NCBI RefSeq assembly: GCF_055900595.2
Contig: NZ_CM148325.1
DNA: 64,000 nt
Direction: 5' to 3' (one strand)
The position numbers were made by a program, and so were the translations under genes. This document shows positions 1,077 to 28,088 of this stretch, one piece after another. The notes beneath the pieces were generated by a model that was not told the DNA's origin, did not search any database, and saw nothing but the letters and a program-made list of their open reading frames with translations. Within the stretch, counting starts at the first letter, position 1. Every line of letters starts with the position of its first letter.

Positions 1077-1269
1077 TCACAACCCGAAGATGTTTCTTTC
1101 GATTCATCATCGTGTTGCGAAAATTTGAGAGACTCACGAACAACTCTCGTTGTTCAGTGTTTCAATTTTCAGCTTGATCCAGATTTTTAAAGAGCAAATA
1201 TCTCAAACGTCACCCGAAGATGAGTTTTGAGATATTAAGGCAGGTGACTTTCACTCACAAACCAGCAAG

Positions 1270-1345: not shown

Positions 1346-1430
1346 GTATCAGTCTGCTTCGCAAGACGCCTTGCTTTTCACTTTCTATCAGACAATCTGT
1401 GTGAGCACTGCAAAGAACAGTTCTTTAAGG

Positions 1431-2972
<1,542 letters not shown>

Positions 2973-3344: not shown

Positions 3345-4202
3345 TCAGTCTAAAACTGCCAGTTTTTCGAGCGTTTCGAAGCCGTAGCGCTGTAAAACGG
3401 GCAATAATTGTTCAGCTTCTGGCGTCATTGCCATACAAAAGGCAATATTCGCATCGGCGGATTTTGCATCCGGGGCTTCATGTTCTAACAACCAGGCCGT
3501 TCGGCGAGCAATCGCTGCGCCAGAATCCACCAGCCGTGTTCCCTCTGGCAGCACTTGTAACAGTTCTTCTTGTAGTAGAGGGAAGTGGGTACACCCCAGA
3601 ACAACGGTATCTGGTGGCTCTTTCATTCTTAACCACGGGCGCAAGATACGCTTTAGTGCATCCAGAGAAACATCTTCGCCATGCAGCTTCGCTTCAGCCA
3701 ACTCAACCATCTCTGCCGAGCCCAGCATTTCTATCTGGCATTCATTAGCGAAACGCGCGATCAGCTCATGAGTATAAGAACGTTTAACTGTTCCGCGGGT
3801 TGCCAGTAATCCGACAATGCCATTTGCCGTCAGACGTGCAGCAGGTTTAATCGCCGGCACGACACCAACAACCGGGAAGTCGAACTTTTCGCGTAATGCA
3901 GGAAGTGAAACGGTACTGGCGGTGTTGCAAGCGACCACTGCCAGCGCAAGGGGATAGCGTTCTTGCACTGCGGTGACAATTGCCACCACTCGCTCAACAA
4001 TAAACTCTTCGCTTTTTTCGCCATAAGGGAAAGCGACGTTATCGAAAGCATAAATGTAATGGAGATCCGGCAAGAGATGCCGGATCTCGTCATAGACCGA
4101 CAACCCACCGACGCCGGAGTCAAACACCAGCACGGTGGGACGTGGTTCAGAAGGTGTAGCTGCCAGACAAGGTGTATTCCCGTCCTGCAGTTTGGTAGCC
4201 AT
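3345..4202 (-). CDS. murI: glutamate racemase
   Basis: ORF 3345..4214; translation from the internal Met ([33 protein letters not shown]...) matches MurI. The start at 4202 gives the known 56-nt overlap with the btuB 3' end. Confidence 0.9.
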
Positions 4203-5991
4203 AGACTGTCTCATAATCTTTGTCGAACAGGTTGGCTATTTTACCACGAACTGTCAGGTGAGAGGTGACCGGATACGCAACCGCAAGATCCCACAAGCTC
4301 ACACCGCCCATTTTCACGGTTTGATACGGCCAGGAGGAGTAATCCTTATCATAGCGAGTGCCTAAATACTGATAAGTAATACCCCAGTCGAAGTCATACA
4401 ACTGCCAGTCGAGCTGGTATTTCACCTGCTGTTTAGCACGGCGTAACAACGGCGTGTCGGTAATTGCATTGCGCGCATCGACATAATCATAACTCACAGT
4501 ATGCGTCAGTGGTCCGGTATCAAAATTGGCGGTCGCCTCGACGCCCTTAATTCGCGCTTTCCCTTCGTTATAGTATTTCAGGGTGTGATCATCGTAATCG
4601 ATCAAGTCACTGACATCGTTACGATATCCAGAAATACGCCAGTTCACCCCAGCGGTTAAGCCTTCAAACGCGCCTTCCCACTGTTTGCTTTTCTCAGGTT
4701 CCAGATTTGGATTTCCGTAGAAGCCATACAGTTGTCCAAGATTTGGTGCCTTATAAGATGTCCCGTAGGAAGCAATGAAGCGATAGCCTTCGATGAATTC
4801 CCAACCAGCGCTGGTTTGCCAGGTTCCATGACGACCAAACTGTGAGTTATCGTCGCTGCGTGCTGCGCCTTCAAAGGTAAAATCGCCGACTTGTTGCAGC
4901 CCGGTCAGATAGATGCCGGTATTACGTTGATCATATCCATCCTCAACGTAACCTGTACCCGGCGTCGTAGTCTGTTTCTGCCAGTCGACACCCGCACCAA
5001 TACTACCGTGACCAACGATGACATTGTTTGCCCACTGGACGGTGTATTGCTTCATCTCATCAAGCGTCGCCGACGAATCATAACGACCATAATGCGGATC
5101 GTAGTTGTAATCTTTGCTATGGCTATAGCTGGTAATGAGTTGTGATTTAATCAGTTCGCCGTTATAGCGCAGCCCGGCGTCCCAACTTTGGCTATAGAGT
5201 TTACGGGTATCGAGCAACGGTGAGCCGGGAGAATAATATGCGTCATAATTGGTATGGTTATCATAGCCATAGCCGCGCACAAAACCGCTCCAGACATCAG
5301 TAAAGTTATGCTCCAGCGCGCCATAAAGCGTTTTACTTAAAAAACCATCGTTATCTGGCTGAGCTTGCGTTCCGGTATTACCATAGGCGACAACATCATA
5401 ACCATGAGTATGGGCATAATCGCCCAACAGCGTTACCCGTGTCTTATCTCCCAGTAGTTGCTGTGTAGAAACATCATAGTTCTGATAGCTATTGCTTCCC
5501 CACCCTGCTGAAATTTCCGTTCCGGGTTGATCGCGCGTCGTGATGATATTCACGACCCCACCTATTGCATCGGAACCATAAACAGCGGAGCGCGGCCCAC
5601 GGATATATTCAACACGCTGGACAAGCGCAATAGGGAACTGGCTAAGGTCGGCAGAACCACTCACCCCCGCCAGATTCAGGCGTACGCCATCAATTAACAC
5701 CAACACATGACTGGCATTTGTACCGCGAATAAAAATAGAAGAGAGTTGACCTGAACCGCCGTTTTGGGTGATATCGACACCCGGAAGACGGCGCAGCACA
5801 TCATTGACCGAGGTCGACTGCCAGCGGTCGATATCCTGACGCGTCACAACGGTGGTTGGTGCAAGCACAGTGCTGCGCGGCTGTTCAAAACGGTTAGCCG
5901 TAACGACGAGAGTATCCGGGCTGGTATCCTGTGCCCAAGCAGAAAATGCCGTGACGGAACACGCCGTCAGCAGCGAAGCTTTTTTAATCAT
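4147..5991 (-). CDS. btuB: TonB-dependent outer-membrane vitamin B12 transporter
   Basis: ORF 4147..6036; the mature start [20 protein letters not shown] gives 614 aa, the length I recall for BtuB. The TonB box (DTLVVTA) and C-terminal beta-barrel are present. The first 15 codons of the ORF belong to the leader. Confidence 0.93.
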
Positions 5992-6232
5992 TGTAAAGCA
6001 TCCACAATAGAAGAAGGATGCCGCAGGCTTCATCAATATTACGCGATGATGAGAACCAGATGCGACGTTAGCCGGCAGGTCTTCGGGCTTGGAGGGGTAT
6101 ATAAAATACTAAGAGATGATGACTTCCCACCGGATGGCAGTGTCCGCATAACGCAATCATCGCACCTTTCCTTACCGCTGCGCGTCAGCTCCAGATTTGC
6201 ACTGGATTCCCTATTAACTCACAGGACCGGCG
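5992..6232 (-). promoter_or_regulatory. cobalamin (B12) riboswitch in the btuB 5' leader
   Basis: Reverse complement matches the btuB leader as I recall it (GCCGGTCCTGTGAGTTAATAGGGAATCCAGTGCGAATCTGGAGCTGACGCGCAGCGGTAAGGAAAGGTGCGATGATTGCG...). Boundaries are approximate. Confidence 0.8.
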
Positions 6233-6359
6233 AGTGGATGCTACAGGTTGTAACAAGTTGCTGTCCAGACGTAGCTCACAAATAGAAATACATCAAGATC
6301 TGGACATCTGATGAGCAATCCCTACAATCGCCGCGTACATTTCATTTTCAGGATACATC

Positions 6360-11235: not shown

Positions 11236-11352
11236 GAAACGGAGCGGCACCTCTTTTAACCCTTGAAGTCACTGCCCGTTTCGAGAGTTTCTCAACTCGA
11301 ATAACTAAAGCCAACGTGAACTTTTGCGGATCTCCAGGATCCGCTTTTTTTT
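11236..11352 (+). ncRNA. oxyS: OxyS small regulatory RNA with intrinsic terminator
   Basis: Sequence GAAACGGAGCGGCACCTCTTTTAACCCTTGAAGTCACTGCCCGTTTCGAGAGTTTCTCAACTCGAATAACTAAAGCCAACGTGAACTTTTGCGGATCTCCAGGATCCGCTTTTTTTT matches oxyS; the 3' hairpin GCGGATC...GATCCGC is followed by a U-run. Confidence 0.92.
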
Positions 11353-11391: not shown

Positions 11392-12675
11392 TTACTCAAT
11401 CCGATCTTTGACAATAAAGAAGTAACACAGCGCCCCGGTGAACGTCACACAGGCCGCGATAACCAGCGCCAGATTAAACGAGTGCGTGGTATCCACTACC
11501 CAACCGGTTACGATCGGAGCAAAGGAAGCAAAAACAAAACTGCCAAAGTTTTGAATCCCGGCGATGGAAGCCACTTTTGTTTCTGACACCATCACCTGCA
11601 CCAGTCCCCATGCAGATGTTCCCGCGAAATGCACGCAGAACAGCGCCATTGAGATAAACGCTACAGCCTGGGCTGGCGAGGAGGATTGCACGACCAGCAA
11701 CGTGCCTAATGCCGACATCATCAAACCGCAGACAATAGCCGTTTTACGCGTCTTCGCCAGGTCGTAGCCTTTTTTCGCCAGCCGATCGACAACAATACCG
11801 TTAACCCACATCCCGACCGCCGCCGCGAGGAAAGGAATCGCCGCCACCCAACCGGTTTTCGCCAGACTGAAGCCTTGCTCGGCTTGTAAATAACCGGGTA
11901 ACCACGCGATGTAGAGCCAACCGGTATAATTGACGCCAGAGAAACCTAAAATCATCCCCCAGGTTGTCCGATGCTTAAACAGCGCCAGCCACTCGCTAAA
12001 TTGTAATTGTGGACGCGGTTTAACCGGCGCGGAGAGATAGGTCCGTTCTTCGTCGGTCAGGACAAACTGCGCCCGGTTGCGATACCACGCGTACCAACAG
12101 ATCCCAACCAGAATCCCCGCCACGCCGATGATGACGAACATTGCCCGCCAGCCCCATGCCAGCTGCATCAATACAAGAGCAGGAGGCGCAATAGCCTGAC
12201 CGATAACGGTAGATGAGTTAAAAATCCCCAGCGCCGTGCCGCGTTCTTTTTGCGCATACCAGTCGGTGATCGACTTTACTCCCGCAGGCATAAATGGCGC
12301 TTCGCCAATACCCAGACCGATACGCATTAAAATAAAGTGGCTAAAAGAATTAACCATTCCTGTTAATGCCTGCATTAATGACCAGAATATTAAGCCTGCA
12401 CCTAAAACTATTCGTGGGCCAAAGCGGTCTAGCAAAATACCGGAAGGGAGTTGTGAAAAACCATAAGACAGAGAAAATGCAGAAAGCAAAACGCCAAATT
12501 CTGTCGCCGATAATCCTAACTCGCCACGAATCGCTTCGCCTGCCACGCTCAATGACGAACGGTCGAGGAAATTAACGATCCCCGCCATAAATAATAAAAC
12601 CAGCGTTACTGTCTGAATACGACGAATCCGTTGCGGTTTATTACCCGCAACACTGGTTGACACATCAACGTCCAT
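11392..12675 (-). CDS. MFS transporter, anion:cation symporter family (sugar-acid permease, DgoT/GudP-like)
   Basis: 427-aa ORF with about 12 predicted TM segments and an N-terminal FLDRSSLSVAG motif, reminiscent of hexuronate/aldonate ACS-family permeases. Confidence 0.75.
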   Translation of the reverse strand: MDVDVSTSVAGNKPQRIRRIQTVTLVLLFMAGIVNFLDRSSLSVAGEAIRGELGLSATEFGVLLSAFSLSYGFSQLPSGILLDRFGPRIVLGAGLIFWSLMQALTGMVNSFSHFILMRIGLGIGEAPFMPAGVKSITDWYAQKERGTALGIFNSSTVIGQAIAPPALVLMQLAWGWRAMFVIIGVAGILVGICWYAWYRNRAQFVLTDEERTYLSAPVKPRPQLQFSEWLALFKHRTTWGMILGFSGVNYTGWLYIAWLPGYLQAEQGFSLAKTGWVAAIPFLAAAVGMWVNGIVVDRLAKKGYDLAKTRKTAIVCGLMMSALGTLLVVQSSSPAQAVAFISMALFCVHFAGTSAWGLVQVMVSETKVASIAGIQNFGSFVFASFAPIVTGWVVDTTHSFNLALVIAACVTFTGALCYFFIVKDRIE

Positions 12676-12741
12676 TTTTAGCTCCTTGAGCGGAATTAAT
12701 CGATTTGCTGACTATTCAGAAAATAATTAAGCGAACCGTTA

Positions 12742-13956
12742 TTACCAGTTCCACAATGTGCCATCTTCCAGTCGTGCGACGGGGAGATACGCCGGGTCAT
12801 ACGGATATTTCGCCGCCAGTTTCTCATCGAAAGAAATACCCAGCCCCGGTTCATCGCCTGGGTGCATATAACCTTCATCGAAGCGCCAGCTGTGCGGGAA
12901 GACTTCAAGCATTTGTTCGGAATAGCCCATGTACTCCTGAACACCAAAGTTTGGCACCCAGAGGTCAAAATGCAGCGCCGCCGCATGACAAACAGGCGAT
13001 AAATCTGAAGGGCCATGCGAACCGGTACGTACCTGATAAAGCGATGCAAAATCGGCAATCCGTCGCATCCCGGTAATGCCGCCTGCATGGGTAATCGTCG
13101 TGCGAATATAGTCAATCAGCTGCTCTTCGATTAACTGCTTGCAGTCCCAGATACTGTTAAACACTTCACCGACCGCAATCGGCGTCACAGTATGCTGGCG
13201 AATCAGACGAAAACATTCCTGGTTCTCGGCAGGCGTCGGATCTTCCATCCAGAACAGGCGGTAATCCTCTATGCTCTTCCCAAAGCGTGCCGCTTCGATA
13301 GGAGTCAGGCGATGGTGCATGTCATGCAACAGATGTTCGTTAAAACCGAACTTATTACGCACCGCTTCAAATAACTTCGGTGTAAAATCGAGATACTTTT
13401 CTGAAGACCACAACTGCTCTTCCGGCCACAGGCCTTTGGTTGCCGGTTCATACGCCAGTCCTTTGCCCTTCGCCAGGCCATAAGTGGTTTGCATACCCGG
13501 TACACCGCACTGCACACGAATCGCCTTAAAGCCCATCTGCTGGTGCTTTGCATAGTCTTCAAGGACTTCATCAATCGTGCGCCCGGTGGTGTGGCAATAA
13601 ACCATCACGCCTTCACGAGAAGCCCCACCAAGCAGTTGATACAATGGCATATTTGCCGCTTTGGCTTTGATATCCCACAACGCCATATCAATGGCAGAAA
13701 TGGCCGACATCGTGACGGGGCCACGTCGCCAGTAAGCACCTTTATAAAAGAATTGCCAGATATCTTCGATACGACTGGCATCGCGGCCAATTAATTGTGG
13801 ACAAAGATGATCTTTCAGATAAGAAGCGACCGACAATTCGCGACCATTTAATGTGGCATCTCCCAATCCACAAAGTCCGCTTGCAGTGGTTATTTTAAGC
13901 GTAACGAAATTACGTCCTGGGCAAGTAACAAAAACATCTGCAGCAATAATTTTCAT
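12742..13956 (-). CDS. enolase-superfamily dehydratase, RspA/ManD-like (putative D-mannonate/aldonate dehydratase)
   Basis: ORF 12742..14016; from the internal Met ([24 protein letters not shown]...) it is 404 aa and aligns along its whole length with the E. coli starvation-sensing protein RspA as I recall it. Confidence 0.8.
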
Positions 13957-14343
13957 TATTGCAATCTCCTGTGTTGTAAATAGACGCTTCAAACTTAATT
14001 TTACGCCTACTACCATACAAGAGAGAAAGAGCGATTATTCAACCGTGATCACATTAAAAATAAAAATTTCCACCGAGGAACAAAAATATCCTCAAATCTC
14101 ACCTACACTATTAACTACCATCGTTAAAACAACGTGTTAAATAATCACATAACAAATTCCTTTAAGGAAGGGAGTTATAACAACAACAAAAGATAATCAT
14201 ATTTTACTTAATTCAATACGTATCGATAGGTTTATTTAAAAAGGATTTTTCGGAATGAGAGATGAAAAGAAGATACACAAGCAGGAAGAAATACGATTAA
14301 TATTAGTTGCGGTAAGGGTAGCCGTTCCTCCCTTCCGCAACCC

Positions 14344-14444
14344 ATTAACCGTTGAAGTCACAGACTATTTCAGGCATTTCTCAACTCAAAATAACGACAG
14401 CCAACGTGAACTTTATGGCTCTCCAGGATCTGCTTTGTTTTCCA
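14344..14444 (+). other. degenerate duplicate of the oxyS 3' half (relic, not a functional gene call)
   Basis: Roughly 75-80% identity by eye to oxyS 11262..11352 on the same strand (shared blocks TTAACC, TTGAAGTCAC, TTTCTCAACTC, AGCCAACGTGAACTTT, CTCCAGGATC). The terminator stem is eroded. Ends exactly at the kinase stop codon. Confidence 0.6.
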
Positions 14445-15923
14445 TCAAACAACGGAGCTCAGCGCACTGGCTACCTGTTTAAAGCGAGCAAACCGTCGCC
14501 TGAGCATGTGTGCTTTTTCTACATTCGGTTCAAGACGAATCACGTTGAGCTGCGTAGCCTTCATGGCCTGTTTGAATCCAGAATAAGCCCCTCCTCCTAC
14601 TGCCGCACACATTGCAGCCGCTCTACAACCTGACTGTTCAATATCGACAATTTCAAGAGGCATTTTGCTGGCATCACAAAACATCTGCATCCAGATTCTG
14701 GAATGCGTTGGCCCGCCAGAGAAACGAATCGTTTGCAATGACTTATCAATCTCAATAAGACGGTCCTGATGCAACAAATGAGAAAAGACAATGCCCTGAT
14801 AAATAGCGTACACCAAATCTTCTCTTTTATGATGCCCACACAGCCCCAAAAATCCCCCGCTTAATGCCTCATGGTAATTCGAGCCAAACAACCACGGGAA
14901 AAAGAGAATATCATTCTGCTTCTCATACCCTCGTTCCACCCACTCATTAATCACCCGATAACTGTCAGGAAGATCCGGTAAAAATTGCTGCAAGAACCAT
15001 GTCAAATTACTGGCTGATGTAGGGCTTCCCTCATGGGCGAAAAATGTACCTGGAATGCTAAATTTCCCCCATACATAGGGATAATCAGAAGGAATAATGC
15101 GATCAAAGATTCGCGTTGCAATTGACCAGGTGCCAGCAACCGCACTTAACGTTGTACTGTCATAGATGCCAGAAGTGAGCGCCGCACCAACGACATCAAA
15201 AACACCACCAAAAACAGGCGTTCCGGCGAGAAGCCCACATTGGCTGGCTGCTTCAGATGTCACAAACCCAGCTAAATCAGCGGAGCCAATAATATCGGGA
15301 ACCTTACCCGCAACTTCCTTAATCTCAAATAGGCGAAAAAGTTCAGCATCATAAGCACTGGTATATTGATTATAAAAATTACTGCCTGAAATATTGGTTT
15401 CTTCACAAGCCAGTTTGCCAGTAAGCCGTGAACGTATGTAATCATGAACCATCAAAATGGTTCCGATGCGGCCATAATTGTCAGTCTCATGTTTTTTCAA
15501 CCAATGCAATAGTGCTACAGGGTGCGATGGCCAGAGCTGTTGCAGACTACGGTGATAACTTTCGCGGTCAATTCCTTGTTCTTTCCAGCTTGCAACCAGT
15601 TGTTGTGCGCGAGAATCAGAGGAAACAATGCCGTGTCGTAAGGGCTTACCTTGCCGGTCGAGCAGGTACAAACCTTTACCATGAGCAGAAAAACTGATGC
15701 CATCAATCTGACTCGCAGTAATATTGTTATCTGACATCGACAGTGAAATGACCTGGCACGTTACCTTCCATAACGCCTCCATGTCGCGTTCGCAAAAACC
15801 AGGACATGGGCTTAACAGAGGTAACGCCTGCGAAGAGACACCTATTTCACGTCCTTCTGCCGTATAAATTCCCGCTTTGGTTTCTGTACCACCTAAATCG
15901 ACACCAATAAAATACCGCTCCAT
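14445..15923 (-). CDS. FGGY-family carbohydrate kinase, L-xylulokinase (LyxK)-like
   Basis: 492-aa ORF with an N-terminal GVDLGGT phosphate-binding motif; global resemblance to E. coli LyxK/SgbK. Confidence 0.8.
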   Translation of the reverse strand: MERYFIGVDLGGTETKAGIYTAEGREIGVSSQALPLLSPCPGFCERDMEALWKVTCQVISLSMSDNNITASQIDGISFSAHGKGLYLLDRQGKPLRHGIVSSDSRAQQLVASWKEQGIDRESYHRSLQQLWPSHPVALLHWLKKHETDNYGRIGTILMVHDYIRSRLTGKLACEETNISGSNFYNQYTSAYDAELFRLFEIKEVAGKVPDIIGSADLAGFVTSEAASQCGLLAGTPVFGGVFDVVGAALTSGIYDSTTLSAVAGTWSIATRIFDRIIPSDYPYVWGKFSIPGTFFAHEGSPTSASNLTWFLQQFLPDLPDSYRVINEWVERGYEKQNDILFFPWLFGSNYHEALSGGFLGLCGHHKREDLVYAIYQGIVFSHLLHQDRLIEIDKSLQTIRFSGGPTHSRIWMQMFCDASKMPLEIVDIEQSGCRAAAMCAAVGGGAYSGFKQAMKATQLNVIRLEPNVEKAHMLRRRFARFKQVASALSSVV

Positions 15924-15939
15924 GATCCCTCCTTAGTTT

Positions 15940-16803
15940 CTAAATATTATCCCAGCCGGCAAAGCGCATTTTCTCTTCAATCCATTGACGTGCATGAATA
16001 ATTTCTAATAGAGGTTCCGTCGCTTTTTCTGTCCACATTTCTATCAGAAACGTTCCGCGATAATTAAGATTACGCAGGATCTTAAATAATTTAATAAAAT
16101 CTACACACCCTTCACCAAAAGGAACGTCACGAAATTGCCCTGGAGAATCAGGCGTTACTGGGTACGTATCTTTAAGATGGATTGCGGCAATTCGATCAAT
16201 CCCCTTTACCAGCTCACTTTCCAGTTCATTACCCCATGCGGTCAGATTGCCAACATCCGGATAAACGGTAAACCAAGGGGAATTAATTTTTGTATCCAGG
16301 ACTTTCCATTTACTAATAGAATTAATAAATGGCGTATCCATGATCTCTACAGCACACATAACTTGTGCCGCTGCGGCCTGTTCAGCTGTCCAGGCCATCG
16401 CATCTTCAAACCAGGCGATAGTTTCTTCATTCTGCGGCTCATAATAAACGTCATAGCCTGCCAGTTGGATTGTTCGAATCCCCAAATCCTGCGCCAGGCG
16501 TAACGCCTTCAACATAATCGTACGTGCCTGCTGACGAGTATCTCTATCATGGCTACCAAATGGAAAACGCCGGTGAGCAGACAGGCACATTGTCGGAATA
16601 CGGATCCCCGTTTGCTGAATGGCGCTAATAAGCTCCATACGCTCGGTGAGCGACCAGTCCAGGCGGGCGAGTCGTTCATCATTCTCATCTACCGACATCT
16701 CAACAAAATCAAAACCGCAAGATTTAGCCAGGGCTAGTTTCTCTACCCAACTGGTATTCCTGGGTAGCGCTTTTTCATAAATACCTAACGGGTGGCGTCG
16801 CAT
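15940..16803 (-). CDS. L-ribulose-5-phosphate 3-epimerase (UlaE/SgbU family, TIM barrel)
   Basis: 287-aa ORF; the N-terminal LGIYEKALP...FDFVEMSVDE...RLDWS...CLSAHRRFP pattern matches UlaE/SgbU closely. Confidence 0.82.
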   Translation of the reverse strand: MRRHPLGIYEKALPRNTSWVEKLALAKSCGFDFVEMSVDENDERLARLDWSLTERMELISAIQQTGIRIPTMCLSAHRRFPFGSHDRDTRQQARTIMLKALRLAQDLGIRTIQLAGYDVYYEPQNEETIAWFEDAMAWTAEQAAAAQVMCAVEIMDTPFINSISKWKVLDTKINSPWFTVYPDVGNLTAWGNELESELVKGIDRIAAIHLKDTYPVTPDSPGQFRDVPFGEGCVDFIKLFKILRNLNYRGTFLIEMWTEKATEPLLEIIHARQWIEEKMRFAGWDNI

Positions 16804-17879
16804 TATTTTCCCTCACGAGTGATCAATTGTTGTTGAAAGATTTTCCGGCTCTTATTCATGTCACGCTGCAACTGCCATTTTTGTTTGATGAATTTAAATG
16901 CCAGTGCGGCGATCAATGTGATCCCCCATACCGCCAGATTGAAATGCAAACTAAGTCCCAACAGACTAAGGCCGGTAGCAATAACCTGAAGCACAAGTAA
17001 GGCACAAAAAACATGACTGACTTTACCCGCCCCACCGAATGGATCTGTGCCTCCCAATACAATTGCAAGAACCGTCAAGAGCAGATAGGAATCGCCATAG
17101 CCCATACGCGCCGAATTAAATCGCGCGAGCATAATAAGACCTGCTAATACACACAACATGCTGGATATAGCATATATAGCAATTAATACGCGGTCGGTGC
17201 GAATACCGCTAAACCATGTGGCGTTAATATTACTGCCACACATATAAATCGTTTTTCCCGTACGGGTTTTGCCGAGGAACAGAGCTAAAGCAACGGTGGT
17301 GACGATAAAAATTATCATCGGTACTGGGATCCCCATGATAACTTCAGACCCAATACTGCGGACTACTGGTGGCATACCACTTAAAGCTGCCCCCTTAGTC
17401 AGGTAAATACCGATACCACTAATAATGGTCATGCTACCCAATGTGACCAAAATAGGGTGAGCGCCTATATGAGAAATAATTGACCCAGTAATAGCTCCAA
17501 TGATGATGGCAATAAGCATCGCCCCGACAATAGCCAGGAAGAGCCAAAACAACTGACTACCTGTAGATGCATCTGCGGGTACATATTGAATCAACAGCCA
17601 GGCCATAAACAGGCTGGTCAGATTCGCAGTACCGATGATTGCCAGATTGAGCCCCCCGCTCAACATGGGTATAAACATCGCAAACGTGAGCAACCCAAGC
17701 TCTGGCAATTGAAATGCAATGCTCAGAAAAGTATTGCCGGTGAAAAAACGCCCCGGCATTACCAGACTAAATAACACCACCGCAATAAAACATATTGATA
17801 ATAAGCCTGAACTGGTACCATCTAGTGGAAAAAATATCCGCTTGTTCATTTCGATCCTCCCGTTAGACGAAACCAACAT
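16803..17879 (-). CDS. monosaccharide ABC transporter permease (CUT2 family)
   Basis: 358-aa polytopic membrane protein immediately downstream of a paralogous permease. True start may be the internal Met (MNKRIFF) at 17849. Confidence 0.75.
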   Translation of the reverse strand: MLVSSNGRIEMNKRIFFPLDGTSSGLLSICFIAVVLFSLVMPGRFFTGNTFLSIAFQLPELGLLTFAMFIPMLSGGLNLAIIGTANLTSLFMAWLLIQYVPADASTGSQLFWLFLAIVGAMLIAIIIGAITGSIISHIGAHPILVTLGSMTIISGIGIYLTKGAALSGMPPVVRSIGSEVIMGIPVPMIIFIVTTVALALFLGKTRTGKTIYMCGSNINATWFSGIRTDRVLIAIYAISSMLCVLAGLIMLARFNSARMGYGDSYLLLTVLAIVLGGTDPFGGAGKVSHVFCALLVLQVIATGLSLLGLSLHFNLAVWGITLIAALAFKFIKQKWQLQRDMNKSRKIFQQQLITREGK

Positions 17880-18855
17880 CAGTTTCTTTACGTTTTTTGT
17901 AATGGGTCACACAAATCGCCGAGACAATAACCACTCCAATAACGATATTGACGAAATAACTCGAGATGCCAATCAAATTAAGGCCGTTTTTAAGAATACC
18001 GATAAGAAATACGCCCATAAGCGTACCAATGACCGTACCACGTCCGCCTGATAAACTGGCACCGCCCAATACCGCTGCAGCCAGCACATCCAACTCTCCG
18101 CCAACCAATGCATTCGGCACAACTTCACTCATACGGTAAGCTTGCAGCATTCCACCAATTGCTGCAGCGGCACCAAGATAACCATAAGCAAACAGATAAA
18201 TTAGCGACACCCGAATCCCAATACGTCTTGCTGATTCGGTATTCCCTCCCACGGCATAAAGCTGACGCCCAATATGGGTTTTGTTCATTATCATCCACGT
18301 CAGAAATGCCATTCCCAGCATAACCACTAACGGTAATCCGATCTGGTAATCTTCTCCGCCAAATTCAAAACTCAGGAAAGAACGCTGCGTAATCCACCAA
18401 TCCGGTAAATCGTAAATACTGTGGCCATTAGTCAACCACATCAACATACCGAACAGTAGCGACTGCATACTAATCGTAATGATGATGGAAACGACATTAA
18501 GGTAATAAATAAGAATAGCGTTTATCAAACCAAAAATGATGCCAAGAAAAACAGCAAACACCAGACAGAAAAATGGATTTGATAGCGTTTCATTAAGCAG
18601 TAACGACGCCACAACATATTGCACAACCGAAGCTACTGCTGCAAAAGAGATATCAATTCCGCCAGTAACCAATACGACAAATAATCCGAGGGCGAAAATA
18701 CCCGTTACGGCATAACTTTCCGAGAGATCGAGCAAGTTCTGTATTGATAAAAACTCATCGCTCATGATGGAAAAAAATACCAGCATGAGAACAATGACCC
18801 ATCCTAACCAAGCTTCGACTGAACGAGGAAACCGCAGCCGCATAAAGCTAACCAT
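17863..18855 (-). CDS. monosaccharide ABC transporter permease (CUT2 family)
   Basis: 330-aa polytopic membrane protein; start overlaps the ATPase stop by 8 nt (translational coupling). Confidence 0.75.
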   Translation of the reverse strand: MVSFMRLRFPRSVEAWLGWVIVLMLVFFSIMSDEFLSIQNLLDLSESYAVTGIFALGLFVVLVTGGIDISFAAVASVVQYVVASLLLNETLSNPFFCLVFAVFLGIIFGLINAILIYYLNVVSIIITISMQSLLFGMLMWLTNGHSIYDLPDWWITQRSFLSFEFGGEDYQIGLPLVVMLGMAFLTWMIMNKTHIGRQLYAVGGNTESARRIGIRVSLIYLFAYGYLGAAAAIGGMLQAYRMSEVVPNALVGGELDVLAAAVLGGASLSGGRGTVIGTLMGVFLIGILKNGLNLIGISSYFVNIVIGVVIVSAICVTHYKKRKETDVGFV

Positions 18856-20365
18856 TAATCACCTCCGCCAACTGCTGCTCGGTATAATTCGAAGGCAACA
18901 GCTCATTAATAATCTTTCCGCGCTTCATATGAAAAATACGATCGCAGTTATAATAAGCTTCTGGTGCTTCATCAGTAATTAATATCACTGAAATACCCAC
19001 ACCTGAAAGCCGATGAATAAGCTGGTAAATACTATCTTTTGCGCCAATATCTACACCTACCGTTGGCGCATCCAGAATTAAAACCTTAGGTCGTGTTAAA
19101 ATCCATTTAGCCAGGACAACCTTTTGTTGATTGCCGCCAGATAGCGTTGAAAGTGGATTATTTGGATCGGTGACTTTAATATCCAAATCCTGGATCCACT
19201 CCTTGACTAAGGTTTCTTTTCGATTTTCATCAATAAACCCCGATGCCGTCTTTAAACGATCCAGAATCGAGAGCACCATATTATCGCTGATAGATTGGGG
19301 TAATACGGCCCCCAGTGTCAGGCGATCTTCTGAAACATATGCTATTCCCAGTTTTACCGCATGCGTGTTGTCTTTAATTGTAACGGGCTTACCTTCCAGA
19401 TAAATATCACCACTATCTGGTCGAGTAATACCGAAAAGACTCAATGCTAATTCAGTTCTCCCCGCACCAAGTAAACCACACAATCCCAGAACCTCGCCCT
19501 GGTGTAGTTTTAGAGAAACATCTTCAAATTGCCCTTTTCTGCATAATTTGTTTAGTTCAAGGACTACTTTGCCTTCAACGCTATTTGGTAGCTTCTTCTG
19601 GTGGACTATAGTTTTTCCGGTCATTAACTCAGTAATATCGCCCGGAGAAAGTTGATTGGCAGCCCACGTTCCAATTATCTCTCCATCACGGATGACCGTA
19701 ATCCGATCTGAAATTTCCTTAACTTCATCAAGGCGGTGGCTAACAAAAACTACGGTAATATTTTTATCGCGTAAGTAATTCACTGTGCGTAGTAATTGAT
19801 TAACTTCTGTACGCGTCAATGATGCCGTTGGCTCGTCCATGATGACTAAGCGGGCATCGGCAATCAGAGCCCGGCAAATCGCGACCTGTTGGCGTTGTGC
19901 AATCGGCAAATGTTGTACTAACGCATCAGGATCGAGATTGAATTGCAGCTCCTGAATTATTTTCTGCGATACATCTCGAAGTTGTTTTTTTCTGTGCAGC
20001 CCTAAATATCCCTTCAGGTTGTATTCAAAAGCGATATTTTCAGCAACAGAAAGATTTGGGAATAAAGAAAGATCCTGATATATCACCTGAATACCCAGTT
20101 CCCGAGCTTTATCAGGAGAAAGACGAGTCCAGGACTTACCATCTATAATAATTTCACTTCCCGAATCAGGGACATAAACACCACACAGCGTTTTGATCAG
20201 AGTACTTTTACCACACCCATTCGCACCAGCAAGACAATGAACCTCACCTTTATTTAAGGTAAGATTGATATTCTTTAGAGCCCTATGGCCACCGAAACTT
20301 TTCGTTAGTGACCTTAGCGTCACTAATGGTTGCTCCGCATTCTTCTCTATAATATGAGGCATCAT
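18848..20365 (-). CDS. sugar ABC transporter ATP-binding protein with duplicated nucleotide-binding domains
   Basis: 505-aa ORF with Walker A GANGCGKST, a second P-loop GLLGAGRTE and the ABC signature LSGGNQQKV; architecture of RbsA/AraG/LsrA-type importers. Confidence 0.85.
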   Translation of the reverse strand: MMPHIIEKNAEQPLVTLRSLTKSFGGHRALKNINLTLNKGEVHCLAGANGCGKSTLIKTLCGVYVPDSGSEIIIDGKSWTRLSPDKARELGIQVIYQDLSLFPNLSVAENIAFEYNLKGYLGLHRKKQLRDVSQKIIQELQFNLDPDALVQHLPIAQRQQVAICRALIADARLVIMDEPTASLTRTEVNQLLRTVNYLRDKNITVVFVSHRLDEVKEISDRITVIRDGEIIGTWAANQLSPGDITELMTGKTIVHQKKLPNSVEGKVVLELNKLCRKGQFEDVSLKLHQGEVLGLCGLLGAGRTELALSLFGITRPDSGDIYLEGKPVTIKDNTHAVKLGIAYVSEDRLTLGAVLPQSISDNMVLSILDRLKTASGFIDENRKETLVKEWIQDLDIKVTDPNNPLSTLSGGNQQKVVLAKWILTRPKVLILDAPTVGVDIGAKDSIYQLIHRLSGVGISVILITDEAPEAYYNCDRIFHMKRGKIINELLPSNYTEQQLAEVING

Positions 20366-20428
20366 AATATTCCTGAATACGACTAAAGGAATTCCGGGTC
20401 AAATTTGACCCGGTGATTTACAGTAAAA

Positions 20429-21433
20429 TTACAAGCCTAGCTTCACTAAACGTCGTGTATTTTCAAGATCGAGCTTTTCTGGATTATCACTATAAATAGT
20501 GTTGTTATTAACCTTGATCTCGCCCATATCACCGATTTTTACACCGTCTTTAATAGGTTCACCGTTCATCATTGCCGTCGCAACCTGGACAAAAACCTTA
20601 CCCGCAATCATAGGGTTTGAAATATATCCCCCATCAATGGCACCTTTTTCGAGTAGCTTAATTCCCTGACCTGGAGTGAAGGTTCCAAAAACGCAAATTG
20701 CATCATTTTTCTTCCGCTTATCAATAGCACGCCCCGCACCAATTGGTCCTTGTGAACCAAATGACATAATGCCTTTAAGATCTTTATATTTAGACATTAA
20801 ATCGTTCGTCGTGCGCATTGAATCATCCACCGACTCAGCAACACCAAAACGATCTTCAACCAACGTCATATTTGGATAATGTTCTTTTTGATAGGCAATC
20901 GCGGCATTGGCCCAGTCATTTACCAAAGGCACAGTCAGACTGCCGACAAACATGGCGTATTTACCTTCTTCGCCCATACACTTCGCCATATCTTTCATAT
21001 GATTGGCACCCATTGTCTGGGTATTTAACAACTCAAAATCCCAATCTGCATTTTTTTGATCTGGTGATTCGTGGGTAATAACTTTAATACCGGCTTCTTG
21101 TGCACGCTTAAGTACAGGTTCAAGAACCTTTGCATCGTTAGGAACAACACCAATAACATCCACTTTTCGTGCAATTAAATCTTCAATCGCCCGAACCTGT
21201 TCAGCTGGATCTGCCGTTGTAGGGCCGACCTGCCATGCATCAACCCCCAATAGTTTTCCTTCATTTTTAATGCCTTGTTCCATCACATTAAACCAGGGAA
21301 TTCCACCGACTTTTACTACTACCCCCATCGTAAAAGGTTTATTCGCTTTTTGTGATGTTACAGTCTGATCAGCCCATGCAGCAGTGGAAGATAATACGGT
21401 AGCAATAAGGCAGGGTAAGATTAATTTTTTCAT
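20429..21433 (-). CDS. periplasmic sugar-binding protein (type I PBP, ABC substrate-binding component)
   Basis: 334-aa ORF with an N-terminal signal peptide (MKKLILPCLIATVLSSTAAWA) and LsrB/RbsB-like fold features; first gene of the transporter operon. Confidence 0.75.
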   Translation of the reverse strand: MKKLILPCLIATVLSSTAAWADQTVTSQKANKPFTMGVVVKVGGIPWFNVMEQGIKNEGKLLGVDAWQVGPTTADPAEQVRAIEDLIARKVDVIGVVPNDAKVLEPVLKRAQEAGIKVITHESPDQKNADWDFELLNTQTMGANHMKDMAKCMGEEGKYAMFVGSLTVPLVNDWANAAIAYQKEHYPNMTLVEDRFGVAESVDDSMRTTNDLMSKYKDLKGIMSFGSQGPIGAGRAIDKRKKNDAICVFGTFTPGQGIKLLEKGAIDGGYISNPMIAGKVFVQVATAMMNGEPIKDGVKIGDMGEIKVNNNTIYSDNPEKLDLENTRRLVKLGL

Positions 21434-21555
21434 CGTAATTTCCTTAAGAAATAGTTCAGGTGTCAGGAAAACTCGATATAATATCGACCTGACTATTTAT
21501 ATAATTTATAATCCCTTAGGCATTGATTAATAATTTAGACAATAAATAACGCCTA

Positions 21556-22365
21556 TTATTTATCAACCTCCACAATGTTTAATTGTGGAAATTGTGTTCG
21601 ATACCGAGTATCTGTACAAACATTAGTCACCAGAATATCGATTTCATCCAGCGTGCATATTTTACTAAATGCATACTGTTCAAACTTAGTGGAGTCGACC
21701 AGCAATATTTTTTGTCCTGACACCTGAAGCATCACCTGTTTAAGTCTGGCATTAATTTCACTGCCATCGCGGACACCATTCCCCAGATTCAACCCCTGGC
21801 ATGAAAAGAAAAAACTGTTGATTTGAAAATTTCGGATCGCACTCTCTGCAACCGGGCCATGAAAATCATCATGTCGCTCAGAATACTCACCACCGATACC
21901 AATAATTCGAACTCGATCACGGCAAGCTAACGCCTGAATTATCCGTAATGAATTTGTAACTACGGTAACATCTATATCGGGAATTTGACGAGCTAAAAAC
22001 CAACAAGTACTACTGTTATCCATTAAAATACAATCACCAGGGTGAATAAATTGCAATGCGGCCTTCGCAATTCTGGCTTTTATATCAGGATTTTCTTCAG
22101 TCCGTTTACGGAATGATTCCGCACGATCGATACTATTATCTTGCCACGCATTATCGGCGAGCATAACCGGAGCGCTATCAGATGAATCCAGAGCGACCGC
22201 GCCACCAAAGCTACGGATTAACTTTTTGTTGCGCTCCAGTACCGTTAAATCCCGACGAATTGTCTCAGGAGACGCTTTAAATAATCGTGATAATTCAGTT
22301 ACCCGCACAGCACCTTGTTTTTGTACATGTGCGCATATCATTTTATGGCGCTCTGCCTGCAACAT
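21556..22365 (-). CDS. DeoR-family transcriptional regulator
   Basis: 269-aa ORF with an N-terminal HTH (VRVTELSRLFKASPETIRRDLTVLE) and a C-terminal DeoR sugar-phosphate-binding domain. Confidence 0.8.
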   Translation of the reverse strand: MLQAERHKMICAHVQKQGAVRVTELSRLFKASPETIRRDLTVLERNKKLIRSFGGAVALDSSDSAPVMLADNAWQDNSIDRAESFRKRTEENPDIKARIAKAALQFIHPGDCILMDNSSTCWFLARQIPDIDVTVVTNSLRIIQALACRDRVRIIGIGGEYSERHDDFHGPVAESAIRNFQINSFFFSCQGLNLGNGVRDGSEINARLKQVMLQVSGQKILLVDSTKFEQYAFSKICTLDEIDILVTNVCTDTRYRTQFPQLNIVEVDK

Positions 22366-22806
22366 AGTATCGGTCCGTTATTATCAAATTAGCATGCTTA
22401 TATAATTAACTGTTCCCTCATAAAATAAAGTGATAGGAATCAAGATTCATTTTATAATTATAATCGCAAACAGGAATGGTGATCTTTATCACAAATTAAA
22501 TTGAGAACACTCTACTATTTGACATTACTTTGAGATATCGGTCACTAAATAAGTCTTATTCTGCCATCTAACGAAAAATTTAAATACAAAAACAAAAATA
22601 ATCGGGCATAGCAATCGCTTCCATTCATGACCGAATACGCCCGAATAAAACCGTTTATACCCACTTATCCTCTTTCGTTGCCTTCTTACATGCCTTGAAT
22701 ATTTTACATTTCTTATATTCAGCGTAATTTAGGAAACATAATTTATGAGCAAAAAAAGCCCAAACTCAAAAGTTAAAGTTTATTTATATAATACATACAG
22801 ATTATC

Positions 22807-23511
22807 GTGGAGTTAAAAATGGATATGCTAAAGGAAAAAGTTCTTGCTGCGAATTTATCATTACCCCTTCATCAGTTAGTGACGTTTACCTGGGGAAATG
22901 TTAGTGGTGTTGATCGCGAAAAAGGTGTCATGGTTATTAAACCTTCTGGGGTCGAATACAGCCAAATGGGCATTGCAGATATGGTGGTAGTGGATTTACA
23001 AAGTGGTGAAGTTATTGATGGACACAGGAAACCCTCTTCAGACACCGATACTCATCTGGCGCTATACCGTGCTTTCCCGGATATTGGTGGTATCGTTCAT
23101 ACCCATTCCCGACACGCCACAATATGGGCTCAGGCCGGAAAAGATCTCACGGCCTTTGGGACAACCCACGCTGATTATTTCTACGGCACTATCCCCTGTA
23201 CACGCCCCATGAAGGATGACGAAATTAATGGACAATATGAATATGAAACGGGGCGAGTGATTATTGAAACGTTCAGACAACGAGAAATATCTCCCGCTGA
23301 CATTCCGGCTGTTTTAGTAAACAGTCATGGCCCCTTTGCCTGGGGAACTGATCCCGCGAACGCCGTGCATAACGCCGTTGTACTTGAAGAAATTGCCTAT
23401 ATGAATCTCTTTACACAACAACTACAGCCCCATCTTACGGCTATTCAACAGCCTCTACTGGATAAGCATTTTTTACGCAAGCATGGTGCCAATGCTTATT
23501 ACGGGCAGTAA
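22807..23511 (+). CDS. L-ribulose-5-phosphate 4-epimerase (class II aldolase fold, AraD/SgbE/UlaF family)
   Basis: 234-aa ORF closely resembling AraD ([74 protein letters not shown]), including the conserved metal-binding His residues. Confidence 0.85.
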
Positions 23512-26936: not shown

Positions 26937-28088
26937 ATGAAAAACAAATTACCGCCATTTATCGAGATTTACCGTGCTCTGATTGCCACACCTTCAATAA
27001 GCGCCACGGAAGAGGCACTCGATCAAAGCAATGCAGATTTAATCACTCTGCTGGCGGACTGGTTTAAAGATTTGGGCTTCAATGTGGAAGTGCAGCCCGT
27101 GCCGGGAACTCGCAACAAATTTAATATGCTAGCCAGTTGCGGACAGGGAGCTGGCGGTTTGCTGCTGGCGGGGCATACCGATACGGTGCCATTTGATGAC
27201 GGCCGCTGGACGCGCGATCCGTTTACGCTGACGGAGCATGACGGCAAGCTTTACGGCTTAGGCACCGCCGACATGAAAGGCTTTTTTGCGTTTATCCTCG
27301 ATGCACTACGCGATGTCGACGTCACGAAACTGAAAAAACCGCTCTACATTCTGGCGACTGCCGATGAAGAGACCAGTATGGCAGGAGCGCGTTATTTTGC
27401 CGAAACTACCGCCCTGCGCCCGGATTGCGCCATCATTGGCGAACCGACGTCGCTGCAACCGGTACGCGCGCATAAAGGCCATATCTCGAACGCCATCCGT
27501 ATTCAGGGCCAGTCGGGGCACTCCAGCGATCCAGCACGCGGAGTTAACGCGATCGAATTGATGCACGACGCCATCGGGCATATTTTGCAATTGCGCGATA
27601 ACCTGAAAGAACGTTATCACTACGAAGCATTTACCGTGCCATACCCTACGCTCAACCTCGGGCATATTCACGGTGGCGATGCATCTAACCGTATTTGCGC
27701 TTGCTGTGAGTTGCATATGGATATTCGTCCGCTGCCAGGCATGACACTCAATGAACTTAATGGTTTGCTCAACGATGCATTGGCTCCGGTGAGCGAACGC
27801 TGGCCGGGTCGTCTGACGGTCGACGAGCTGCATCCACCGATCCCTGGCTATGAATGCCCACCGAATCATCAACTGGTTGAAGTGGTTGAGAAATTGCTCG
27901 GAGCAAAGACCGAAGTAGTGAACTACTGTACCGAAGCGCCGTTTATTCAGACGTTATGCCCGACGCTGGTGCTGGGACCTGGCTCAATTAATCAGGCTCA
28001 TCAGCCTGATGAATACCTGGAGACACGGTTTATCAAGCCCACCCGCGAACTGATCACCCAGGTGATTCACCATTTCTGCTGGCATTAA
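26937..28088 (+). CDS. argE: acetylornithine deacetylase
   Basis: ORF 26898..28088; the internal start [22 protein letters not shown] gives 383 aa, the length I recall for ArgE (M20 peptidase family). Confidence 0.93.

What the first reader, a model, noticed from the sequence alone, without database searches (positions are those of the whole stretch)
22366..22806. 441-bp A/T-rich divergent control region between the DeoR regulator and the 4-epimerase
This is an unusually long intergenic spacer with no ORF, separating the divergently transcribed regulator/transporter operon and the 4-epimerase gene. It probably contains both promoters and DeoR operators, and is long enough to hold a small RNA or riboregulatory element.
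Basis: seen in the sequence. Interest (0 to 1): 0.35.

Follow-up and report, generated by a model that had tools for sequence, protein, structure and literature searches.

The report
CRP and FucR-like sugar-operon control region
The long A/T-rich gap is an ordinary but well-conserved genetic switch: two back-to-back promoters, three docking sites for the global sugar-hunger regulator CRP, and a cluster of repeated boxes for the neighbouring FucR-like regulator. I found no sign of a small RNA or riboswitch.

Summary
The spacer is real. It runs 22366-22818 (453 bp, not 441), because the epimerase starts at ATG 22819 and the GTG at 22807 overlaps its ribosome-binding site. GC is 30%. It lies in an accessory sugar island of E. 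coli between oxyS/oxyR and argH.

Twenty-one orthologous loci from seven genera, plus three distant ones, keep these elements:
- A minus-strand promoter for the regulator/ABC-transporter operon (-10 at 22407..22402, start near 22395).
- Three CRP-type sites at 22429-44, 22478-93 and 22531-46. They fall at -41.5, -90.5 and -143.5 from the inferred start.
- An array of 10-bp-phased boxes ATGMCCGAWT at 22599-22657.
- A plus-strand promoter for the epimerase (-35 at 22702-08, -10 at 22725-30).

Distances from CRP site 1 to the box array vary by at most 1 bp across genera, although the sequence between the sites has diverged to near-random identity.

The box core matches the published FucR motif (CGG[T/G]CAT). 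A matrix trained on these loci also finds the FucR sites of the K-12 fucA-fucP region.

There is no Rfam match, no unusual RNA folding, no terminator and no conserved small ORF.

Verdict: this is a new member of a known kind, a fuc-like, CRP-co-dependent divergent control region. Whether the regulator activates or represses is not settled.

The parts
21556..22365 (-). DeoR/GlpR-family regulator gene. It is FucR-like (33% identical to K-12 FucR) and is the first gene of the regulator / ABC-transporter / 3-epimerase / FGGY-kinase operon.
   Evidence: All NCBIfam hits fall below the equivalog cut-offs; the best is the FucR model at 161 bits against a cut-off of 259.
22366..22818 (.). The whole divergent control region: 453 bp, 30% GC.
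22402..22407 (-). Predicted -10 hexamer (AATTAT on the minus strand) of the regulator-operon promoter. The inferred start is A at about 22395, inside the conserved CAYG at 22393-22396.
   Evidence: A2 and T6 of the hexamer are invariant in 21 loci, and the CAYG is nearly invariant. The start site is inferred, not mapped.
22429..22444 (.). CRP-type site 1, AGTGATAGGAATCAAG. GTGA and TCA.G are invariant. Its centre (22436.5) lies at -41.5 from the inferred minus-strand start, the Class II position.
   Evidence: It resembles the functionally validated O_Crp2 of fucAO, TGTGAcctggtTCAAC (PMC11011485).
22478..22493 (.). CRP-type site 2, GGTGATCTTTATCACA (9 of 10 core matches). It lies 49 bp from site 1 in all 21 loci, at -90.5.
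22531..22546 (.). CRP-type site 3, TGAGATATCGGTCACT (8 of 10 core matches). It lies 101-103 bp from site 1 in all 21 loci, at -143.5.
22599..22612 (-). FucR-type box in inverted orientation (GCTATGCCCGATTA on the minus strand). It always lies 170-171 bp from CRP site 1. The neighbouring outer slot at about 22589-22602 is degenerate in E. coli but is a good box in most other genera.
22624..22647 (+). Two overlapping-register FucR-type boxes at a 10-bp period: TTCATGACCGAATA (22624-37) and AATACGCCCGAATA (22634-47).
   Evidence: These are the two best hits in the whole 64-kb window with a matrix trained without E. coli.
22644..22657 (+). Third 10-bp slot of the direct-repeat arm (AATAAAACCGTTTA). 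It is degenerate in E. coli but scores well in, for example, Atlantibacter and Providencia.
22702..22708 (+). -35 region of the epimerase promoter (TTTTAC, or TTTACA one base to the right). The leading TT is invariant.
22725..22730 (+). -10 hexamer TAATTT of the epimerase promoter. T1, A2 and T6 are invariant, and no locus has an indel between the -35 and -10. The inferred start is about 22737, giving a leader of roughly 82 nt.
   Evidence: The start site is inferred, not mapped.
22809..22812 (+). Shine-Dalgarno GGAG of the epimerase gene, conserved in the orthologous loci.
22819..23511 (+). L-ribulose-5-phosphate 4-epimerase gene (class II aldolase superfamily), a single-gene unit.

Best explanation
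The spacer is the shared cis-regulatory region of a fuc-like sugar regulon carried on an accessory island. It contains protein-binding DNA only.

Left side. A sigma-70 promoter for the regulator/ABC-transporter/3-epimerase/kinase operon has no recognisable -35. It depends on cAMP-CRP bound at -41.5 (Class II position), helped by two more CRP dimers at -90.5 and -143.5.

Centre-right. An array of 10-bp-phased boxes (ATGMCCGAWT; one or two inverted copies followed by two or three direct copies) is the binding site of the adjacent FucR-like DeoR-family regulator.

Right side. A second sigma-70 promoter with a weak -35 drives the 4-epimerase gene. The array lies at about -80 to -135 from its inferred start.

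Proposed mechanism, by analogy with FucR at fucPIK/fucAO. The regulator, once loaded with a phosphorylated pathway intermediate (probably an L-pentulose phosphate), binds or re-arranges on the array. Together with CRP it switches on both promoters, so expression needs both 'no glucose' and 'substrate present'.

Shown here: the elements, their conservation, their fixed geometry, and the identity of the box core with the published FucR motif.

Inferred: the transcription start sites, occupancy by CRP and by this regulator, the activator mode, and the inducer.
For: 1. Context. The regulator, ABC transporter, L-Ru5P 3-epimerase, FGGY kinase and divergent 4-epimerase are identified.

2. Box discovery. 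An unbiased k-mer count over 11 lineages puts ATG[A/C]CCGA first, 9 occurrences against about 0.1 expected.

3. Box arrangement. A matrix scan gives a [<- <-][-> -> ->] array in 10-bp register in all 21 loci, 102 hits against 11 expected in shuffles.

4. Box specificity. With a matrix trained without E. coli, the three best hits in the whole 64-kb window are the three boxes in this spacer. The spacer holds 4 hits of at least 11 bits against 0.04 expected, reached by 0 of 1000 shuffles.

5. Link to the regulator. Regulators only 45-56% identical, in differently organised operons that lack the divergent epimerase, keep the same array 220-260 bp upstream of their start codon.

6. Link to FucR. 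The published FucR consensus has CGG[T/G]CA as its most conserved bases, and O_FucR2 is CCGAAAACGGTCATT (PMC11011485). The matrix finds 6 sites of at least 9 bits in the K-12 fucA-fucP spacer against 0.2 expected, reached by 0 of 1000 shuffles, and one of them is O_FucR2. The regulator is 33% identical to FucR.

7. CRP sites. At offsets 0, +49 and +102 the mean match to TGTGA-N6-TCACA is 6.9-7.7 of 10, against a background of 2.65 with sd 0.76.

8. Fixed geometry. Spacing from site 1 to the array varies by at most 1 bp in 21 loci, while the intervening DNA is only 34-35% identical between lineages.

9. Within-species variation. The two E. coli alleles differ at 25 spacer positions. None falls in a box, a promoter hexamer or a CRP half-site; three fall in the CRP N6 spacers.

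10. The fuc precedent. That region is a 546-bp spacer with two promoters, four CRP sites and four FucR sites. FucR activates from sites upstream of a CRP site (PMC11011485 and PMC11894529).
Against: - No transcription start, protein binding or expression data exist for this locus. Both -10 elements have near-palindromic invariant positions, so their orientation rests on context: the -35 TT, the CAYG at the start, and the CRP position.
- Most DeoR-family members are repressors. NCBIfam scores against the repressors SrlR and AgaR are nearly as good as against FucR.
- Tightly packed 10-bp-phased boxes look more like GlpR tandem operators than the spread-out FucR sites of fuc, which are 28-41 bp apart.
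- No CRP site lies between the array and the epimerase promoter, unlike fucAO.
- In a single sequence the CRP-like words are no more frequent than chance: 29 in the window against 26.5 expected. The CRP call rests entirely on positional conservation.
- Site 1 has an atypical, invariant right half (TCAAG).
Confidence: 0.5

Rival explanations
1. The parts are the same, but the regulator is a classical DeoR/GlpR-type repressor. An oligomer nucleates on the high-affinity box array. It silences one or both promoters at a distance, either by looping or wrapping the CRP-bent DNA or by preventing productive CRP-RNA polymerase contacts. The sugar phosphate releases it, and CRP alone then activates.
For: - Most characterised DeoR-family proteins are repressors (family knowledge). 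NCBIfam hits to SrlR and AgaR are as strong as to FucR.
- Tandem 10-bp-phased boxes with an inverted arm suit a multimeric repressor. GlpR uses four operators together with two CRP sites at glpFK (PMC5493358).
- The array-to-site-1 distance, fixed at 170-171 bp (about 16 helical turns), is what a phase-dependent loop would require.
- The regulator is the first gene of its own operon, the usual layout for autorepression.
Against: - No box overlaps either core promoter or start site. The nearest conserved box is about 75-86 bp upstream of the epimerase start and about 210 bp upstream of the operon start.
- No conserved second operator exists near either promoter to close a loop. Site 1 lacks the CCG core of the box in most species.
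- The box core is that of FucR, the one known activator of the family in E. coli.
Confidence: 0.32
2. The spacer encodes a small RNA, a riboswitch or another structured leader that controls the epimerase or the operon.
For: Length alone. The region also has an inverted repeat at 22599-22647 that folds somewhat better than shuffles on the minus strand (z = -1.8).
Against: - No Rfam family matches at E<=10 in the spacer or at the gathering threshold in the window.
- No terminator-like site was found on either strand.
- Plus-strand folds are indistinguishable from shuffles, z from +0.30 to -0.54.
- The predicted epimerase leader cannot be aligned and varies in length between genera.
- The inverted repeat keeps the same word on both arms and also occurs as direct repeats. 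That is the signature of a DNA-binding site, not of an RNA stem.
Confidence: 0.03
3. Site 1 (GTGAT-N4-ATCAA in E. coli) is bound by FNR or another CRP/FNR-family protein rather than by CRP, so the operon would respond to anaerobiosis.
For: In E. coli the site matches TTGAT-N4-ATCAA at 9 of 10 positions (read). The invariant right half TCAAG is closer to the FNR half-site than to TCACA.
Against: - The left half is invariantly GTGA, the CRP type.
- The base before TCAA varies (A, T, G or C) across genera, so the ATCAA half-site is not conserved.
- A validated CRP site of fucAO has the same GTGA-N6-TCAAC form.
- Sites 2 and 3 are canonical CRP sites in phase with site 1.
Confidence: 0.08

Closest known systems
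E. coli fuc regulon control region (fucAO <-> fucPIKUR; FucR plus cAMP-CRP)
   Same: - Both are long A/T-rich divergent spacers (546 bp at 36% GC against 453 bp at 30% GC).
- A class II aldolase-superfamily gene sits on one side. A transporter, an FGGY kinase and a DeoR-family regulator sit on the other.
- Both have several CRP sites and several regulator boxes with the same core, ATGACCG / CGG[T/G]CAT, placed centrally and far upstream of the promoters.
- The matrix trained on this island finds the published FucR site.
- From the K-12 sequence, the fucP side also shows two CRP-like sites 40 bp apart, with the FucR boxes beyond them.
   Different: - The regulator is a paralogue, not FucR: 33% identity, and 161 bits against the 259-bit cut-off.
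- It is the first gene of its operon, not the last.
- Uptake is by an ABC transporter rather than an MFS symporter.
- The enzymes point to an L-pentulose-5-phosphate epimerisation route, not to fuculose-1-phosphate cleavage.
- The boxes are packed at a 10-bp period in two opposed arms, not spread 28-41 bp apart.
- All three CRP sites lie on one side of the array.
- Nothing here has been tested experimentally.
GlpR tandem operators with CRP (for example glpFK)
   Same: Both involve a DeoR/GlpR-family protein, multiple adjacent operator repeats, and co-control by two or more CRP sites (PMC5493358). From memory, the GlpR half-site WATGTTCGWT differs from the present ATGMCCGAWT mainly at two central positions.
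   Different: GlpR operators overlap the promoter and the CRP sites, and they repress. Here the boxes are separated from the CRP sites and lie 75-255 bp upstream of the predicted starts.
Tandem-CRP (Class III) promoters and multi-CRP divergent regions such as malE-malK
   Same: One CRP site is predicted at -41.5, with further in-phase CRP sites upstream. A specific regulator's repeats share one rigid spacer that serves two divergent promoters. The comparison rests on established knowledge and on the citations in PMC11011485 to Richet 1991 and Wade 2001.
   Different: The specific regulator belongs to the DeoR family, not to the MalT type. No evidence for a higher-order complex exists here beyond the indel-free geometry.
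ulaG <-> ulaABCDEF control region (UlaR, CRP, IHF)
   Same: From memory: a DeoR-family regulator with several operators in a divergent spacer. That system also feeds L-xylulose-5-P and L-ribulose-5-P 3- and 4-epimerases, and it is CRP-dependent.
   Different: UlaR is a repressor that uses IHF-assisted looping. The box sequence is different. No conserved IHF-like site was seen here.

Membership tests
FucR-type (DeoR-family) regulated control region | A DeoR-family regulator gene is encoded at the locus. | tested here: met
   (PF08220 HTH_DeoR plus PF00455 DeoRC).
FucR-type (DeoR-family) regulated control region | Repeated boxes carry the FucR core CGG[T/G]CAT. | tested here: met
   Three strong and two degenerate boxes lie at 22589-22657. 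The published motif and O_FucR2 are quoted. The matrix cross-detects the fuc sites.
FucR-type (DeoR-family) regulated control region | The boxes co-occur with the regulator across genomes and gene contexts. | tested here: met
   21 orthologous loci and 3 distant loci with other operon layouts.
FucR-type (DeoR-family) regulated control region | The regulator is FucR itself (an equivalog). | tested here: not met
   161 bits against the curated cut-off of 259; 33% identity. It is a paralogue.
FucR-type (DeoR-family) regulated control region | Physical binding of the regulator, and activation by a sugar phosphate. | not testable with these tools
   Requires EMSA or footprinting and reporter assays.
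CRP-dependent promoter (Class II with upstream tandem sites) | Sites match TGTGA-N6-TCACA. | tested here: met
   Site 2 matches 9 of 10, site 3 matches 8 of 10, site 1 matches 7 of 10.
CRP-dependent promoter (Class II with upstream tandem sites) | The sites are more frequent than chance in the single sequence. | tested here: not met
   29 matches with at most 2 mismatches in 64 kb, against 26.5 expected.
CRP-dependent promoter (Class II with upstream tandem sites) | The sites are conserved at fixed positions in orthologous regions. | tested here: met
   Peaks at offsets 0, +49 and +102, z = 5.6-6.6. Differences between the E. coli alleles fall only in the N6 spacers.
CRP-dependent promoter (Class II with upstream tandem sites) | The site centre lies at -41.5 from a mapped start. 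| tested here: inconclusive
   The geometry fits the predicted -10 (22407..22402) and the conserved CAYG, but the start is not mapped.
Riboswitch, cis-regulatory leader or small RNA | A match to a known RNA family. | tested here: not met
Riboswitch, cis-regulatory leader or small RNA | A fold more stable than shuffles, a conserved structure, or an intrinsic terminator. | tested here: not met
   Plus-strand z-scores run from +0.30 to -0.54. No terminators were found. The leader cannot be aligned.
Leader peptide or small protein | A conserved start codon and reading frame. | tested here: not met
   The ATG at 22745 is ACG in allele L021, and other genera have no counterpart.

The most novel reading that the evidence does not exclude
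The roughly 230-bp core (CRP site 1 to the box array) varies in length by at most 1 bp across Enterobacterales, although the DNA between the sites has diverged to near-random identity. The most novel reading is that it acts as a rigid scaffold for a stereospecific complex of three CRP dimers and an oligomeric FucR-like regulator. That complex would wrap the DNA so that an array about 210 bp upstream can control a Class II promoter.

A corollary follows from the box core being the same as FucR's. The host FucR and the island's regulator could cross-talk, wiring a horizontally acquired pentulose island into the fucose response.
Probability: 0.25. Interest if true: 0.5.

Novelty: new member of a known kind. 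Interest (0 to 1): 0.3.

Why it matters
The analysis gives a concrete, testable regulatory map for an uncharacterised accessory sugar-utilisation island found in about 3% of complete E. coli genomes and in Citrobacter, Atlantibacter, Yersinia, Erwinia, Pantoea and Providencia. The map names the promoters, the CRP sites and the operator motif.

The analysis also extends the FucR DNA motif to a paralogous regulator family. And it shows a case where binding-site spacing is conserved far more strictly than sequence, which is useful for studying co-dependence on CRP and a specific regulator.

It does not reveal a new kind of element.

Tried and rejected
- Small RNA or riboswitch. Rfam was searched at E<=10 and at the gathering threshold, with nothing in the spacer. 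Folding z-scores were unremarkable and no terminator was found.
- Leader peptide. The 23-aa ORF at 22745-22816 has an SD-like AGGAAA upstream, but its start codon is lost in the other E. coli allele and other genera have no counterpart.
- The only strong consensus promoter in the single-sequence scan (GTGATA-17-TATAAT, 22430-22458, plus strand) is not conserved in any other genus. I set it aside.
- A plus-strand promoter between CRP site 3 and the array (for example AATAAT at 22597-22602). The A/T words there are the flank of the outer inverted box, and no conserved -10 is present.
- Site 1 as a second operator to close a repression loop. Its left half resembles the box in Erwinia and Pantoea (12 bits), but the CCG core is absent in most species.
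- An operator inside the epimerase promoter spacer. TTACGCC-GAATAA in Citrobacter is one base short of a box, and only two positions there are invariant.
- CRP-site enrichment in the window alone is not significant. Only the comparative test is informative.
- Literature searches for this gene cluster found nothing specific.
- A search for the GlpR operator consensus gave the architecture but not the sequence, so the half-site comparison rests on memory.

Full report
**What is there.**
The window is E. coli chromosome. The 601-bp stretch 22300-22900, which contains the spacer, is 100% identical to strain EC42405 and others. It occurs in 146 of 5,426 complete E. coli genomes. It lies in a roughly 12-kb accessory island between oxyR/OxyS (OxyS at 11236-11345) and argH.

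The minus strand carries one apparent operon:
- a DeoR/GlpR-family regulator (21556-22365);
- a sugar-binding protein, an ABC ATPase and two permeases;
- an L-ribulose-5-P 3-epimerase;
- an FGGY kinase.

The plus strand carries a lone L-ribulose-5-P 4-epimerase gene.

The epimerase starts at ATG 22819, as in RefSeq. It is preceded by a conserved GGAG at 22809-12. The spacer is therefore 22366-22818, 453 bp. Its GC content is 30%, against 43% for the island and 50% for the window. It is the second longest of 25 gaps in the annotated 30 kb.

**Comparative material.**
A peptide-pattern scan of 100,044 species genomes returned 19 orthologous loci. They come from Atlantibacter, Citrobacter, Yersinia, Erwinia, Pantoea, Affinibrenneria and Providencia, with regulators 63-86% identical. 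All keep the divergent regulator/epimerase layout, with 423-631 bp between the genes. A second E. coli allele is 94.5% identical in the spacer. MAFFT alignment A1 shows islands of invariant columns in otherwise unalignable DNA.

**The repeated box.**
- A strand-collapsed k-mer count over 11 lineages, made before any motif was assumed, ranks ATGCCCGA and ATGACCGA first. Each occurs 9 times against about 0.1 in shuffles.
- An iterated 14-column matrix (consensus AATATGACCGATTA) gives 102 hits in the 21 spacers against 11 in shuffles.
- Every locus shows the same arrangement: one or two copies in inverted orientation, a gap, then two or three direct copies, all in a 10-bp register.
- In the window the strong copies are 22599-22612 (minus), 22624-22637 and 22634-22647 (plus). 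The slots at about 22589-22602 and 22644-22657 are degenerate.
- With a matrix rebuilt without the E. coli sequences, these three are the three best hits on both strands of the whole 64-kb window.

**Who binds it.**
Three more distant regulators (45-56% identical; Serratia, Sodalis and a metagenome contig) sit in differently organised operons. Two of these have no divergent gene at all. All three keep the same opposed-arm array 220-260 bp upstream of the regulator's start codon, and the Serratia and Sodalis loci keep the same distances to CRP-like sites 1 and 3. The array therefore travels with the regulator gene and its promoter, not with the epimerase.

The literature then supplied the match. 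The FucR motif from a high-throughput binding assay has CGG and CA as its most conserved bases, and the functionally tested O_FucR2 is CCGAAAACGGTCATT (PMC11011485). That is the reverse complement of the box found here. The matrix was trained only on this island's loci. Even so, it finds six sites of at least 9 bits in the 546-bp K-12 fucA-fucP spacer, against 0.2 expected and reached by 0 of 1000 shuffles. One of the six is O_FucR2. PMC11894529 speaks of four known FucR sites there. The island's regulator is 33% identical to FucR and falls below every NCBIfam equivalog cut-off. It is a FucR-like paralogue.

**CRP sites.**
- Anchoring on the invariant GTGA-N6-TCA.G, I scored every offset for matches to TGTGA-N6-TCACA across 18 loci.
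- Three offsets stand out: 0, +49 and +102. Their mean matches are 6.9, 7.7 and 7.4 of 10, against a background of 2.65 with sd 0.76.
- In the window these sites are 22429-44, 22478-93 and 22531-46.
- Taken alone, such words are no more common in the window than chance, 29 against 26.5. The call rests on positional conservation.
- The two E. coli alleles differ within these sites only in the unconstrained N6 spacers.
- Site 1 has an unusual invariant right half, TCAAG. The validated O_Crp2 of fucAO has the same form, TGTGAcctggtTCAAC.

**Geometry.**
- Site 1 to site 2 is 49 bp in all 21 loci.
- Site 1 to site 3 is 101-103 bp.
- Site 1 to the inner inverted box is 170-171 bp.
- The three intervening spacers are only 34-35% identical between lineages, close to random for this composition.

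Length variation between loci is confined to three places: the two leaders, and the stretch between the array and the epimerase promoter. In that stretch E. coli has 11 extra bp, one helical turn.

**Promoters (predicted, not mapped).**
Left promoter:
- The hexamer at 22407..22402 (AATTAT on the minus strand) has invariant A2 and T6.
- A nearly invariant CAYG follows at 22393-96. This places the start at about 22395 and gives a leader of about 30 nt.
- CRP sites 1, 2 and 3 then fall at -41.5, -90.5 and -143.5, and the boxes at about -210 to -255.
- From memory, this is the canonical Class II position with upstream tandem sites.

Right promoter:
- TT at 22702-03 and T, A and T at 22725, 22726 and 22730 are invariant.
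- No locus has an indel between them. This fits a -35 of TTTTAC/TTTACA and a -10 of TAATTT, with a start near 22737 and a leader of about 82 nt.

The invariant positions of both -10 elements are near-palindromic. I chose their orientation from context.

**What it is not.**
Rfam finds nothing in the spacer. No terminator-like site is present. RNA folds of the leader, the array and the whole spacer on the plus strand are within the shuffle range. The minus-strand z of -1.8 over the array only reflects the opposed boxes. The 23-aa ORF at 22745-22816 is not conserved.

**How it most likely works.**
The closest characterised system is the fuc regulon. It too has a long A/T-rich divergent spacer, multiple CRP sites, and FucR boxes placed centrally and upstream of the CRP sites. 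There, fuculose-1-phosphate-loaded FucR activates both operons together with CRP (PMC11011485).

Four observations point to a CRP-co-dependent activator:
- the box core is the same as FucR's;
- no box overlaps either core promoter;
- the left promoter has no -35;
- the right promoter has a weak one.

I rate this model at about 0.5. A GlpR-style repressor acting by looping or wrapping is the serious rival, at about 0.3. The tight 10-bp phasing, the autoregulatory gene order and the strictly fixed 170-bp distance all fit it.

The inducer is inferred to be a phosphorylated L-pentulose intermediate. This follows from the enzyme set (kinase, 3-epimerase, 4-epimerase) and from the known habit of DeoR-family proteins of sensing sugar phosphates.

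**Verdict.**
It missed the CRP sites. It is not supported on the small RNA or riboregulator idea. This is a new, uncharacterised member of a known kind of control region.

Noticed in passing
window 11236-11345 (+) and 11392-23511: OxyS (Rfam, 139.5 bits) lies next to oxyR. In this strain about 12.2 kb of accessory sugar genes (MFS transporter, ManD, then the kinase...regulator operon and the epimerase) separate it from argH. The 601-bp query spanning the regulator-epimerase spacer matches 146 of 5,426 complete E. coli genomes.
   Followed up: partly
window 13957-14444: A second long non-coding gap (488 bp) lies between the end of the FGGY kinase gene and the start of manD, on the same strand. 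It has a CRP-like word (AATGTGATCACGG on the minus strand, near 14050). It may be the manD promoter region or a junction between two acquired modules.
   Followed up: no
window 22535-22548 (-): In this allele the N6 spacer of CRP site 3 creates a box-like word, TTAGTGACCGATAT (12 bits), that overlaps the CRP site. The other E. coli allele (L021) differs at 22539 and 22540 and lacks it.
   Followed up: partly
window about 22688-22698: E. coli has 11 extra bp (ACATGCCTTGA) between the box array and the -35 of the epimerase promoter, compared with all other genera. That is one helical turn, so the angular relation is kept.
   Followed up: partly
window 27571-27584 and 27655-27668 (-): Two FucR-type box hits (12.4-13 bits) lie 84 bp apart inside the argE coding sequence. 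They are probably chance.
   Followed up: no
L025 (K-12) 3690-4235: The fucA-fucP spacer has at least five ATGACCG/CGGTCAT boxes at 3876-4017. CRP-like sites flank them at 3815, 4032 and 4072. The 4072 site would sit about 41 bp upstream of a start predicted from a GAAAAT -10, so the fucP side appears to share the Class II layout with upstream CRP sites and distal FucR boxes.
   Followed up: partly
L007 (Yersinia) and L009 (Affinibrenneria), epimerase leaders: These two loci carry about 150-200 bp of extra sequence between the epimerase promoter block and the start codon. The content was not analysed.
   Followed up: no
A1 columns about 388-396 (downstream of the last direct box): A TTTGTT word (TTTGTT-N6-TTTGTAAA in Providencia) is conserved in most genera between the array and the epimerase -35, but is absent in E. 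coli. No factor has been assigned.
   Followed up: no
window 1-2972, 6057-6246, 61787-61839: Other Rfam matches in the window: an rRNA operon end (23S, tRNA, 16S), a cobalamin riboswitch and the L31 ribosomal-protein leader. All are ordinary.
   Followed up: no
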